This document shows, piece by piece, positions 18,922-21,030 of a stretch of 64,000 nt of DNA. This stretch comes from Escherichia coli (GTDB lineage: Bacteria > Pseudomonadota > Gammaproteobacteria > Enterobacterales > Enterobacteriaceae), in the NCBI RefSeq assembly GCF_003334305.1, contig NZ_QOWS01000014.1. The stretch is one strand, 5' to 3'. Made by a program: the position numbers and the translations under genes. Within the stretch, counting starts at the first letter, position 1. Each line of letters starts with the position of its first letter. A model generated the notes under the pieces. That model did no database searches. It was not told where the DNA came from and was given only the letters and a program-made list of their open reading frames with translations.

Positions 18922-19215
18922 ATGGCCAAAGAACAAACGGACCGTACGACATTAGATCTGTTCGCGCACGAGCGTCGACCGGGACGACCGAAAACTAATC
19001 CGCTTTCGCGCGATGAACAGCTGCGTATTAATAAACGCAACCAGCTAAAACGCGACAAAGTACGTGGCCTTAAGCGTGTCGAACTGAAGCTGAACGCGGA
19101 AGCTGTCGAGGCGCTGAACGAGCTGGCGGAGTCGCGCAATATGAGCCGTAGCGAACTGATCGAAGAGATGTTAATGCAGCAACTGGCGGCGCTGCGTAGT
19201 CAGGGCATCGTTTAA
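18922..19215 (+). CDS. ybfE: YbfE (LexA-regulon protein in K-12), 97 aa
   Basis: Internal ATG of ORF 18853..19215 gives [46 protein letters not shown]...; start chosen by length recall. Confidence 0.8.
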
Positions 19216-19354
19216 ATTTCCACTTTCATGTAGCACAGTGTGCAGTCCTGCTCGTTTGCTGATTCCGCAAGACTGCCTGTTCTGCTATGATTGCCTTTAT
19301 CCGTGGGCAATTTTCCACCCCCATTTCAATAAGTTTCAAGAGGTTATTTCACTC

Positions 19355-19885
19355 ATGGCTATCACTGGCATCTTTTTCGGCAGCGACACCGGTAATACCG
19401 AAAATATCGCAAAAATGATTCAAAAACAGCTTGGTAAAGACGTTGCCGATGTCCATGACATTGCAAAAAGCAGCAAAGAAGATCTGGAAGCTTATGACAT
19501 TCTGCTGCTGGGCATCCCAACCTGGTATTACGGCGAAGCGCAGTGTGACTGGGATGACTTCTTCCCGACTCTCGAAGAGATTGATTTCAACGGCAAACTG
19601 GTTGCGCTGTTTGGTTGTGGTGACCAGGAAGATTACGCCGAATATTTCTGCGACGCATTGGGCACCATCCGCGACATCATTGAACCGCGCGGTGCAACCA
19701 TCGTTGGTCACTGGCCAACTGCGGGCTATCATTTCGAAGCATCAAAAGGTCTGGCAGATGACGACCACTTTGTCGGTCTGGCTATCGACGAAGACCGTCA
19801 GCCGGAACTGACCGCTGAACGTGTAGAAAAATGGGTTAAACAGATTTCTGAAGAGTTGCATCTCGACGAAATTCTTAATGCCTGA
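19355..19885 (+). CDS. fldA: Flavodoxin 1, 176 aa
   Basis: Internal ATG of ORF 19238..19885 gives [71 protein letters not shown] (FMN-binding T-G-N-T loop). Confidence 0.96.
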
Positions 19886-20090
19886 TGTGATGCGGCGTAG
19901 ACTCATGTCTACGCCGTATTAATAGATAATGCCAATCAAAATAATTGCTACAAATTTGTAACTTTTGCTGTTGTACCTGTACAATGTCCCGGTGTTCAAG
20001 TGGCCTTGCCGTTGTAAATGTAAGCTGTGCCACGTTTTTATTAACAATATTTGCCAGGGACTTGTGGTTTTCATTTAGGCGTGGCAATTC

Positions 20091-20109
20091 TATAATGATA
20101 CGCATTATC
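20091..20109. promoter_or_regulatory. Fur-box-like 19-mer in the fur/uof promoter region
   Basis: TATAATGATACGCATTATC matches the Fur consensus GATAATGATAATCATTATC at 15 of 19 positions; overlaps the uof start codon. Confidence 0.6.
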
Positions 20110-20181
20110 TCAAGAGCAAATTCTGTCACTTCTTCTAATGAAGTGAACCGCTTAGTAACAGGACAGATTCCGCATGACTGA
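20095..20181 (+). CDS. uof: Uof leader peptide, 28 aa, translationally coupled to fur
   Basis: Last 28 codons of ORF 19945..20181: MIRIISRANSVTSSNEVNRLVTGQIPHD; its stop overlaps the fur coding start (fur ATG 20174). Confidence 0.7.
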   Translation: MIRIISRANSVTSSNEVNRLVTGQIPHD

Positions 20182-20620
20182 TAACAATACCGCCCTAAAG
20201 AAAGCTGGCCTGAAAGTAACGCTTCCACGTTTAAAAATCCTGGAAGTTCTTCAGGAGCCGGACAACCATCACGTCAGTGCGGAAGATTTATACAAACGTC
20301 TGATCGATATGGGTGAAGAAATTGGTCTGGCTACGGTATATCGCGTACTGAACCAGTTTGACGACGCTGGTATCGTCACCCGCCACAATTTTGAAGGCGG
20401 TAAATCCGTATTTGAACTGACACAGCAACATCACCACGATCACCTGATTTGCCTCGACTGCGGCAAGGTTATCGAATTTAGTGATGATTCCATCGAAGCG
20501 CGTCAGCGTGAAATTGCCGCAAAACATGGCATTCGCCTGACTAACCACAGTCTCTATCTTTACGGTCACTGTGCCGAAGGCGATTGCCGCGAAGATGAGC
20601 ACGCGCACGAAGGCAAATAA
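20174..20620 (+). CDS. fur: Ferric uptake regulator Fur, 148 aa
   Basis: ORF-track protein MTDNNTALKKAGLKVTLPRLKILEVLQEPDNHHVSAEDLYKRLIDMGEEIGLATVYRVLNQFDDAGIV... with the HHHDH and C-terminal Cys metal sites. Confidence 0.97.
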   Translation: MTDNNTALKKAGLKVTLPRLKILEVLQEPDNHHVSAEDLYKRLIDMGEEIGLATVYRVLNQFDDAGIVTRHNFEGGKSVFELTQQHHHDHLICLDCGKVIEFSDDSIEARQREIAAKHGIRLTNHSLYLYGHCAEGDCREDEHAHEGK

Positions 20621-20635
20621 GCCAGCCTGAACGAG

Positions 20636-20663
20636 AAAAGCCAACCTGCGGGTTGGCTTTTTT
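20636..20663. terminator. Bidirectional terminator between convergent fur and chiQ
   Basis: AAAAGCCAACCTGCGGGTTGGCTTTTTT: 8-bp stem (GCCAACC-side) with flanking A and T runs. Confidence 0.7.
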
Positions 20664-20703
20664 ATGCAAGGGAAATAAGAAAAGCGAGAGTTACAGCTCT
20701 CAC

Positions 20704-21030
20704 TTATTTGTTATTACTGCGAATTTCCTGCCAAACTTTATCACAATCGGCTTTCACCGCCTGGTCATTACCGGTTTGCGTTGCGCGCAGACACTGCTGA
20801 TAATCCAGTACGCGTACACTTTCCTGGTCGGCAAACTGCTGATGTTGTTTTTCTTTCTTCAGCACGTTTAACACGCTCTGGCAGGCTTCAATTTTTTCTG
20901 GCGAACCTTGTGCGGTGTTGATACAGGCGCTGTATGCCTCTTTCAGACGACTGTCTTCCTGTGGCGCGGTTGATTGCGCACAAGCTACCAGCCCCGATGC
21001 CATCATGGCGATGAGAATCAGTTTTTTCAT
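20704..21030 (-). CDS. chiQ: Lipoprotein ChiQ (YbfN), 108 aa
   Basis: ORF-track protein MKKLILIAMMASGLVACAQSTAPQEDSRLKEAY... (lipobox LVAC); immediately downstream of chiP on the same strand. Confidence 0.9.
   Translation of the reverse strand: MKKLILIAMMASGLVACAQSTAPQEDSRLKEAYSACINTAQGSPEKIEACQSVLNVLKKEKQHQQFADQESVRVLDYQQCLRATQTGNDQAVKADCDKVWQEIRSNNK

What the first reader, a model, noticed from the sequence alone, without database searches (positions are those of the whole stretch)
20091..20181. Fur-box-like motif overlapping the start codon of the uof leader ORF, which overlaps fur
Seen: TATAATGATACGCATTATC begins 4 nt before the uof ATG, and the uof stop overlaps the fur start. The same 19 bp contains a perfect TATAAT hexamer. 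That raises the question of whether this is a Fur operator, a -10 element or both, and implies that some fur transcripts may start inside uof.
Basis: partly seen in the sequence, partly recalled or inferred. Interest (0 to 1): 0.3.

Follow-up and report, generated by a model that had tools for sequence, protein, structure and literature searches.

The report
Known Fur operator/-10 in fur promoter
This 19-bp motif is the long-known self-repression site of the E. coli iron regulator gene fur: it is both the -10 element of a fur promoter and a footprinted Fur binding site, and it also holds the start codon of the small upstream ORF uof, so the finding is correct but ordinary.

Summary
The window carries E. 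coli fldA-uof-fur. TATAATGATACGCATTATC lies at 20091-20109 and matches the Fur consensus at 16 of 19 positions. It is the only match with 3 or fewer mismatches in the 64 kb, and no shuffle produced one. The uof ATG (20095) sits inside it. uof and fur overlap by 8 nt (ATGACTGA).

- **Fur binding:** the DNase I Fur footprint of de Lorenzo 1988, as tabulated by Chen et al. 2007, maps to window 20083-20112 and covers the whole motif.
- **Promoter:** TTTTCA-17 bp-TATAAT is a 10/12 sigma-70 match. SMRT-Cappable-seq puts a primary 5' end at NC_000913.3 710716, which is window 20104. That is 7 nt after the hexamer and 9 nt after the A of the uof ATG.

My comparison of 80 Enterobacterales species adds one point. 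TATAATGA is kept in 73 of 81 sequences, but a uof-like ORF reaching the fur start is kept in only 44. The ATG is therefore conserved mainly as promoter and operator sequence.

In vivo Fur ChIP-exo occupancy is listed in only one of nine strains, which fits weak autoregulation. Verdict: already known, low interest.

The parts
19893..19916 (+). Hairpin after the fldA stop codon (CGGCGTAGAC-TCAT-GTCTACGCCG). It acts as a leaky fldA terminator, and read-through gives fldA-uof-fur mRNA.
   Evidence: Sequence read. A published Term-seq 3' end at 710897, which is window 19923, is classed as the primary 3' end of fldA. An fldA-uof-fur transcript from TSS 711521 is listed.
19956..19985 (+). Distal promoter candidate TTGTAA-18 bp-TACAAT (the literature's Puof). 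Transcripts from it include the uof start codon.
   Evidence: Promoter scan, 9/12. CTGTACAATG and the upstream block 19935-19965 are conserved in about 80-90% of 81 Enterobacterales sequences. The literature names a Puof promoter upstream of uof. I found no start-site coordinate for it in any table I could read.
20068..20073 (+). -35 hexamer TTTTCA of the proximal fur promoter (Pfur / furpa)
   Evidence: Promoter scan: TTTTCA-17 bp-TATAAT, 10/12. TTTTCA is at this spacing in 56 of 73 species that keep the -10. The GTTTTCATTT columns are >=90% conserved.
20091..20096 (+). -10 hexamer TATAAT of the proximal fur promoter. Its last two bases are the A and T of the uof ATG.
   Evidence: The published TSS lies 7 nt downstream.
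20091..20109 (+). Fur box (Fur operator), 16/19 to consensus
   Evidence: unique in the window, 0/100 shuffles. It lies inside the published footprint.
20083..20112 (.). Published DNase I footprint of Fur on the fur promoter, mapped onto the window
   Evidence: Chen et al. 2007, Table 3: fur 709931-709960, 2 predicted sites, best Ri 12.3 bits. I converted coordinates with window = 730043 - coordinate. The 777-bp offset between NC_000913.2 and .3 is from memory, and it is self-consistent with the motif position.
20104..20104 (+). Transcription start of the short fur mRNA (an A), inside uof codon 4
   Evidence: SMRT-Cappable-seq operon table: b0683, TSS 710716, reverse strand, mapped to NC_000913.3. 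The window position is 730820 - 710716.
20095..20181 (+). uof, a 28-codon upstream ORF. It can be translated only from transcripts that start upstream of 20095 (Puof, PfldA, PybfE).
   Evidence: Translational coupling to fur and RyhB control are reported in secondary sources that cite Vecerek 2007.
20160..20164 (+). fur Shine-Dalgarno (AGGAC), 10 nt before the fur ATG
   Evidence: Sequence read. The block 20154-20181 is >=90% conserved. The centroid fold pairs 20122-20127 with 20162-20167, but the fold is not better than shuffles.
20174..20620 (+). fur coding sequence (148 aa)

Best explanation
The 19-mer is the operator and the -10 of the proximal, autoregulated promoter of E. coli fur.

RNA polymerase with sigma-70 uses TTTTCA (20068-73) and TATAAT (20091-96) and starts at A 20104. 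This makes a short fur mRNA with a 70-nt leader that lacks the uof start codon. Metal-loaded Fur binds 20083-20112, which covers the -10 and the start site, and excludes polymerase. Fur therefore lowers its own proximal promoter, and the effect is modest because the site is weak.

The same DNA is also transcribed within longer mRNAs from upstream promoters (Puof, fldA, ybfE). In those mRNAs the ATG inside TATAATG is the uof start codon. uof translation ends 5 nt after the start of the fur ATG and is reported to be coupled to fur translation.

Shown: the sequence features, the footprint coordinates, the start site, the two mRNA sizes and the conservation. Inferred: promoter occlusion as the mode of repression, and the idea that the uof ATG is conserved mainly because it is part of the -10/operator.
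For: - **Motif:** unique in 64 kb and 16/19 to consensus.
- **Promoter:** 10/12 match with 17-bp spacer.
- **Fur binding:** the published Fur footprint 709931-709960 maps to window 20083-20112. It is one of the 11 footprinted sites used to build Fur models, Ri 12.3 bits.
- **Start site:** capped 5' end at 710716, which is window 20104, for a fur-only transcript.
- **Transcripts:** northern evidence for a short fur mRNA from a promoter inside uof and a longer uof-fur mRNA.
- **Literature statement:** the Fur box overlaps the Pfur-a -10, and both fur starts lie within uof.
- **Strength of autoregulation:** described as moderate.
- **In vivo binding:** Fur ChIP-exo peak in strain KO11FL under iron-replete conditions at 4301615-4301627, which is window 20109-20121.
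- **Conservation across species:** GTTTTCATTT, TCTATAATGA and ACGCATT are >=90% conserved across 81 Enterobacterales sequences. TATAATGA is present in 73/81, but a uof-like ORF reaching fur is present in only 44.
- **Conservation within E. coli:** the 60-bp core is identical in 5269 of 5425 E. coli genomes.
Against: - **In vivo occupancy is weak or inconsistent.** The ChIP-exo tables list a uof/fur peak in only one of nine strains and none in MG1655.
- **The site is weak.** It scores 12.3 bits against 17-23 bits for iron-uptake operators.
- **Primary papers were not readable.** I could not read de Lorenzo 1988, Zheng 1999 or Vecerek 2007. The footprint and start sites therefore come from secondary tables and later papers.
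- **Start-site evidence is thin.** Only one genome-wide start-site table was readable.
- **One coordinate offset is from memory.** This is the 777-bp offset between NC_000913.2 and .3.
Confidence: 0.9

Rival explanations
1. The motif is only a -10 element. Its likeness to a Fur box is accidental, because the Fur consensus is built from GATAAT-like hexamers that resemble TATAAT.
For: The left third of the box is the -10 hexamer. ChIP-exo finds no peak in 8 of 9 strains. The information score is low.
Against: The 16/19 match includes the right half CATTATC, which a -10 does not need. ACGCATT downstream of the -10 is about 90% conserved across the order. A published DNase I footprint covers the site. 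A ChIP-exo peak abuts it in KO11FL.
Confidence: 0.04
2. The motif is conserved chiefly as the translation initiation region of uof, and the promoter and operator likeness is secondary.
For: The ATG at 20095 is the annotated uof start. An ORF from this ATG that ends overlapping the fur ATG is found in 44 of 73 species. In 7 of these it ends in a different frame through ATGA, which hints at selection for coupling.
Against: TATAATGA is kept in 24 species where the ORF stops early, and in 4 where it runs in frame into fur. There is no Shine-Dalgarno at normal spacing: the nearest AGG is 16 nt upstream. Variation shows no codon-position pattern. The conserved -35 at 17 bp and the capped start at 20104 show promoter use.
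Confidence: 0.03
3. This would be an additional role and does not exclude the main explanation. Fur bound at 20083-20112 also acts on the long transcripts as a roadblock. By repressing only the proximal promoter, it sets the ratio of uof-less to uof-containing fur mRNAs, which differ in RyhB sensitivity and in dependence on uof translation.
For: Two mRNA classes exist and respond differently to RyhB. Three or more promoters feed fur and change in use with growth phase. The operator lies inside the transcribed region of the long mRNAs.
Against: I found no direct test. The weak site and weak in vivo occupancy argue against an efficient roadblock.
Confidence: 0.2

Closest known systems
E. coli K-12 fur proximal promoter (furpa/furpb) with its Fur box (de Lorenzo et al. 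1988, Eur J Biochem 173:537)
   Same: It is the same locus and the same sequence. The motif lies inside the footprint coordinates tabulated for the fur promoter, and the 60-bp core is identical in 5269/5425 E. coli genomes.
   Different: Nothing differs. The window is this locus in another E. coli strain.
uof-fur leader ORF with RyhB control and translational coupling (Vecerek, Moll and Blasi 2007, EMBO J 26:965)
   Same: The same 28-codon ORF with the 8-nt overlap to fur.
   Different: Reviews usually describe uof as if it were present on 'the' fur mRNA. The proximal start at 20104 gives an mRNA without the uof start codon. Outside Escherichia, Citrobacter, Enterobacter and relatives the ORF is often truncated.
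Classical Fur-repressed promoters where the operator overlaps -35/-10 (iucA, fepA-fes, fhuF, cir)
   Same: The operator overlaps core promoter elements, and repression is by occlusion (background).
   Different: There is a single weak site cluster (2 predicted sites, 12.3 bits) instead of strong multi-dimer arrays of 17-23 bits. Autoregulation is only moderate.

Membership tests
Fur box / Fur operator | Close match to the 19-bp consensus GATAATGATAATCATTATC, beyond chance | tested here: met
   16/19; the only match with <=3 mismatches in 64 kb; 0/100 shuffles
Fur box / Fur operator | Metal-dependent protection by purified Fur (DNase I footprint) | not testable with these tools
   It is published. 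The footprint 709931-709960 (de Lorenzo 1988, as listed by Chen et al. 2007, Table 3) maps to window 20083-20112. The primary paper is not held.
Fur box / Fur operator | In vivo occupancy by Fur | tested here: inconclusive
   In the published ChIP-exo tables, a peak is assigned to uof/fur in KO11FL only, at window 20109-20121 under iron-replete conditions. No entry appears for MG1655 or the other strains.
Fur box / Fur operator | Position overlapping core promoter elements of the regulated gene | tested here: met
   The site overlaps the -10 and the start site.
Fur box / Fur operator | Conservation of both half-sites at orthologous promoters | tested here: met
   TATAATGA and ACGCATT(A) are >=90% conserved. 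The last three bases of the box are about 60-70% conserved.
Sigma-70 promoter | -35 and -10 hexamers with 16-18 bp spacing | tested here: met
   TTTTCA-17-TATAAT, 10/12
Sigma-70 promoter | Primary (5'-triphosphate) transcript end 6-9 nt downstream of the -10 | tested here: met
   The published SMRT-Cappable-seq TSS at 710716 is window 20104, 7 nt after the hexamer.
Sigma-70 promoter | Conservation of both hexamers in relatives | tested here: met
   TATAATGA in 73/81 and TTTTCA at the right spacing in 56/73
Translationally coupled leader ORF (uof) | Short ORF whose stop overlaps or abuts the downstream start codon | tested here: met
   ATGACTGA, an 8-nt overlap
Translationally coupled leader ORF (uof) | Ribosome binding site ahead of the leader start | tested here: not met
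   There is no Shine-Dalgarno-like purine run 5-10 nt before 20095. The nearest AGG is at 20077-79, 16 nt upstream. Translation is nevertheless reported in the literature.
Translationally coupled leader ORF (uof) | Start codon present on the mRNA | tested here: inconclusive
   The start codon is present on transcripts from upstream promoters and absent from the proximal transcript that starts at 20104.
Translationally coupled leader ORF (uof) | ORF kept open in relatives | tested here: inconclusive
   Of 73 sequences, 44 keep an ORF that ends on the fur start, 24 stop early, 4 are in frame with fur and 1 has lost the stop. There is no codon-position signature.

The most novel reading that the evidence does not exclude
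The triple overlap (-10, Fur operator, uof start codon) could work as an isoform switch. When iron-loaded Fur occupies the site, it shuts off only the uof-less short mRNA, so fur expression comes to rely on long mRNAs whose translation depends on uof decoding. When Fur leaves, the short mRNA is made and bypasses uof. The comparative data suggest uof arose opportunistically from the ATG that TATAATG supplies. It was then kept in some lineages, even across frame changes, and lost in others such as Salmonella arizonae, Klebsiella and Pantoea.
Probability: 0.2. Interest if true: 0.35.

Novelty: already known. Interest (0 to 1): 0.08.

Why it matters
The finding matters little as a discovery. The Fur box in the fur promoter is one of the founding footprinted Fur sites, and fur starts inside uof are recorded in databases and papers.

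It does carry a practical reminder. Accounts of uof-fur coupling and RyhB control apply only to transcripts that start upstream of 20095. A capped transcript starts at 20104 without the uof start codon. Quantitative models of Fur homeostasis should therefore treat the mRNA isoforms separately.

The comparative result is a small addition to what is published. The promoter/operator core is conserved across Enterobacterales, while uof is kept in only some lineages.

Tried and rejected
- **Primary papers.** de Lorenzo 1988, Zheng 1999 (PMC103597), Vecerek 2007 (PMC1852835), Escolar 1999 (PMC103753) and Thomason 2015 (PMC4288677) are not held. I relied on later papers and tables.
- **Start-site tables.**
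  - The Cappable-seq (Ettwiller 2016) supplements as held contain no coordinates near the locus.
  - No supplements are held for Conway 2014 or Beauchene 2015.
  - The held supplements of Adams 2021 list 3' ends only.
  - I therefore found no coordinate for the distal Puof start.
- **RyhB pairing.** RNAduplex on the whole leaders gave meaningless long-range structures no better than shuffles. A windowed search with the RyhB core did not pick the region around GAGCAA (20114-20119) that I expected. A published benchmark likewise found the RyhB-uof model not predictable. I make no claim about the pairing site.
- **RNA families and structure.** Rfam has no family in 19850-20700 apart from two sub-threshold hits after fur. 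The short leader folds no better than shuffles, z = -0.67.
- **KO11FL accession.** NC_016902.1 was not in the collection; NC_017660.1 was.
- **Second Fur box.** I considered a second Fur box near the distal promoter and rejected it. No site with <=3 mismatches exists there, and that conserved block is more likely the OxyR site reported by Zheng 1999. That attribution is from memory and I did not check it.

Full report
**What is there**

The window around the finding is the E. coli fldA-uof-fur region. A 401-bp query (19850-20250) is 100% identical to many complete E. coli genomes and matches 5425 of 5426. RefSeq annotates fldA, uof ('fur leader peptide') and fur at the corresponding positions.

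In the window, fldA ends at 19885. uof is 20095-20181 (28 codons, MIRIISRANSVTSSNEVNRLVTGQIPHD). fur is 20174-20620. The motif TATAATGATACGCATTATC is at 20091-20109.

**Is it more than chance?**

The motif matches the 19-bp Fur consensus at 16 positions. It is the only site in the 64 kb, on either strand, within 3 mismatches, and none of 100 dinucleotide-preserving shuffles gave one.

A simple sigma-70 scan finds TTTTCA-17 bp-TATAAT (20068-20096) with 10 of 12 matches. This is the best promoter-like site in 19200-20800. A second candidate, TTGTAA-18 bp-TACAAT, lies at 19956-19985.

**Coordinate maps**

The uof ATG is 710725 in NC_000913.3, so window = 730820 - coordinate. For NC_000913.2, I used an offset of 777 bp. 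That offset is from memory. It is self-consistent, because it places the motif inside the published footprint.

**Fur binding**

Chen et al. 2007 (PMC2189734) list the fur promoter among the 11 DNase I-footprinted E. coli Fur sites used to build their model. The footprinted region is 709931-709960, citing de Lorenzo et al. 1988, with two predicted sites and a best information content of 12.3 bits. Iron-uptake operators score 17-23 bits. This footprint maps to window 20083-20112 and covers the whole 19-mer.

In vivo evidence is thinner. In the ChIP-exo tables of the Fur pan-regulon study (PMC10164565), one peak is assigned to uof/fur. It is in strain KO11FL under iron-replete conditions, at 4301615-4301627. 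In that genome uof starts at 4301601, so the peak is window 20109-20121 and abuts the box. No entry with matching coordinates appears for MG1655, and no other strain lists uof or fur as a target.

This fits the description of E. coli fur autoregulation as moderate.

**Promoter use**

The SMRT-Cappable-seq operon table (PMC6131387) enriches 5'-triphosphate ends and reads whole transcripts. It lists a start at 710716 on the reverse strand for an operon containing only b0683 (fur). Starts at 711521 (fldA and fldA-uof-fur) and 711951 (ybfE-fldA-uof-fur) give the longer units. Mapping was to NC_000913.3, and only fully covered genes are assigned to an operon.

Position 710716 is window 20104, an A. 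It lies 7 nt after TATAAT and 9 nt after the A of the uof ATG. This transcript cannot encode uof from its annotated start.

Two other sources agree:
- Sinha et al. [quoted passage not shown] Only the short one falls when RyhB is induced.
- Jaworska et al. [quoted passage not shown]

Conway et al. 2014 also describe three promoters feeding ybfE-fldA-uof-fur.

**Comparative evidence**

I fetched the fur locus from 80 species-representative Enterobacterales genomes and analysed the 260 nt upstream of fur together with the window sequence.

Column conservation is highest in three blocks:
- GTTTTCATTT (20066-20075), TCTATAATGA (20089-20098) and ACGCATT (20100-20106), all at 90% or more.
- CTGTACAATG (19977-19986) and the block 19935-19965 at the distal promoter.
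- The fur ribosome binding region (20154-20181).

TATAATGA is found within 140 nt of fur in 73 of 81 sequences. TTTTCA sits 17 bp upstream of it in 56 of those 73.

The ORF that starts at the ATG of TATAATG is less constant:

| Outcome of the ORF from the TATAATG ATG | Sequences (of 73) |
|---|---|
| Ends overlapping the fur ATG, stop at +5 (as in E. coli) | 37 |
| Ends overlapping the fur ATG, stop at +1 through ATGA in another frame | 7 |
| Stops 18-76 nt before fur | 24 |
| Runs in frame into fur | 4 |
| Has lost its stop | 1 |

The early-stop group includes Salmonella enterica subsp. arizonae, Klebsiella oxytoca, Raoultella, Atlantibacter and Pantoea.

Among 22 distinct 28-codon versions, variation shows no third-position excess. 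The peptide sequence is therefore not under visible purifying selection.

The ATG is thus conserved first of all as part of the -10 and operator. The ORF is kept in some lineages, possibly for coupling, and lost in others. Within E. coli, the 60-bp core 20066-20125 is identical in 5269 of 5425 genomes.

**Mechanism**

- *Shown:* the sequence features, the footprint location, the primary start at 20104, the two mRNA classes and the conservation.
- *Inferred from established knowledge of Fur-repressed promoters:* Fur with Fe2+ bound over the -10 and the start site excludes RNA polymerase from the proximal promoter. This gives modest negative autoregulation.
- *Reported but not verified here:* on transcripts from upstream promoters, the same bases are mRNA and provide the uof start codon. 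uof translation is reported to be coupled to fur translation and to respond to RyhB and to iron-dependent decoding. I saw these reports only through secondary sources.

I could not reproduce the RyhB pairing by computation, and a published benchmark could not either. The short leader is not unusually structured, and no Rfam family matches.

**Rivals**

- *Pure -10 with an accidental Fur-box likeness.* The conserved right half, the footprint and the KO11FL peak all contradict this.
- *Conservation driven by uof translation initiation.* This is contradicted by the many species that keep TATAATGA without the ORF, by the missing Shine-Dalgarno, and by the capped start at 20104.
- *An added roadblock or isoform-switch role for Fur.* This is possible but untested.

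**Verdict**

All of it is already known for this locus, so the interest is low. The only additions here are the mapping of published coordinates onto the window and the comparative finding that the promoter/operator core is conserved across Enterobacterales while uof is kept in only some lineages.

Noticed in passing
window 20175 (NC_000913.3 710645, within the fur ATG): Published Term-seq tables list a very abundant RNA 3' end here in two conditions (read values 137086 and 180817), flagged 'uORF'. Together with the start at 20104, this would give a leader RNA of about 72 nt ending at the fur start codon. Its origin is not explained; it could be termination, processing, or protection by ribosomes or RyhB.
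   Followed up: no
window 19893-19923: A perfect 10-bp hairpin follows the fldA stop, and a published 3' end lies at 710897, which is window 19923. It lacks a good U tract (UAUUAAU), so it probably acts as a leaky terminator that lets fldA-uof-fur read-through occur.
   Followed up: partly
window 19935-19986: The block ATCAAAATAATTGCTACAAATTTGTAAC plus CTGTACAATG is 80-90% conserved across 81 Enterobacterales sequences. It contains the distal promoter candidate TTGTAA-18-TACAAT. It probably corresponds to the OxyR-activated fur/uof promoter of Zheng 1999, but that is from memory and the paper is not held. No start coordinate for it appeared in the one TSS table I could read.
   Followed up: partly
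L057, L058, L060, L063 (Enterobacter sp. R1(2018), Buttiauxella izardii, B. agrestis, Dryocola boscaweniae), about 66-69 nt before fur: In these species the ATG of TATAATG is in frame with fur with no intervening stop. Long transcripts could therefore encode a Fur with an N-terminal extension of 22-23 residues.
   Followed up: no
L022, L027, L030, L049, L054, L056, L065: In Mangrovibacter, Cedecea, a Buttiauxella and one genome labelled Citrobacter freundii, indels shift the frame. The ORF from TATAATG still ends exactly on the fur start through ATGA, with an unrelated peptide. This hints at selection for termination at the fur start and not for the peptide sequence.
   Followed up: partly
L046 (Enterobacter asburiae INSAq146): The uof stop is lost, and the ORF runs 49 codons to +68 inside fur in another frame.
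   Followed up: no
window 20628-20689, minus strand: There are sub-threshold Rfam hits (STnc50 at 21.7 bits and isrD at 20.4 bits, both far below gathering) over the fur terminator region between fur and chiQ. They are most likely just the terminator hairpin.
   Followed up: no
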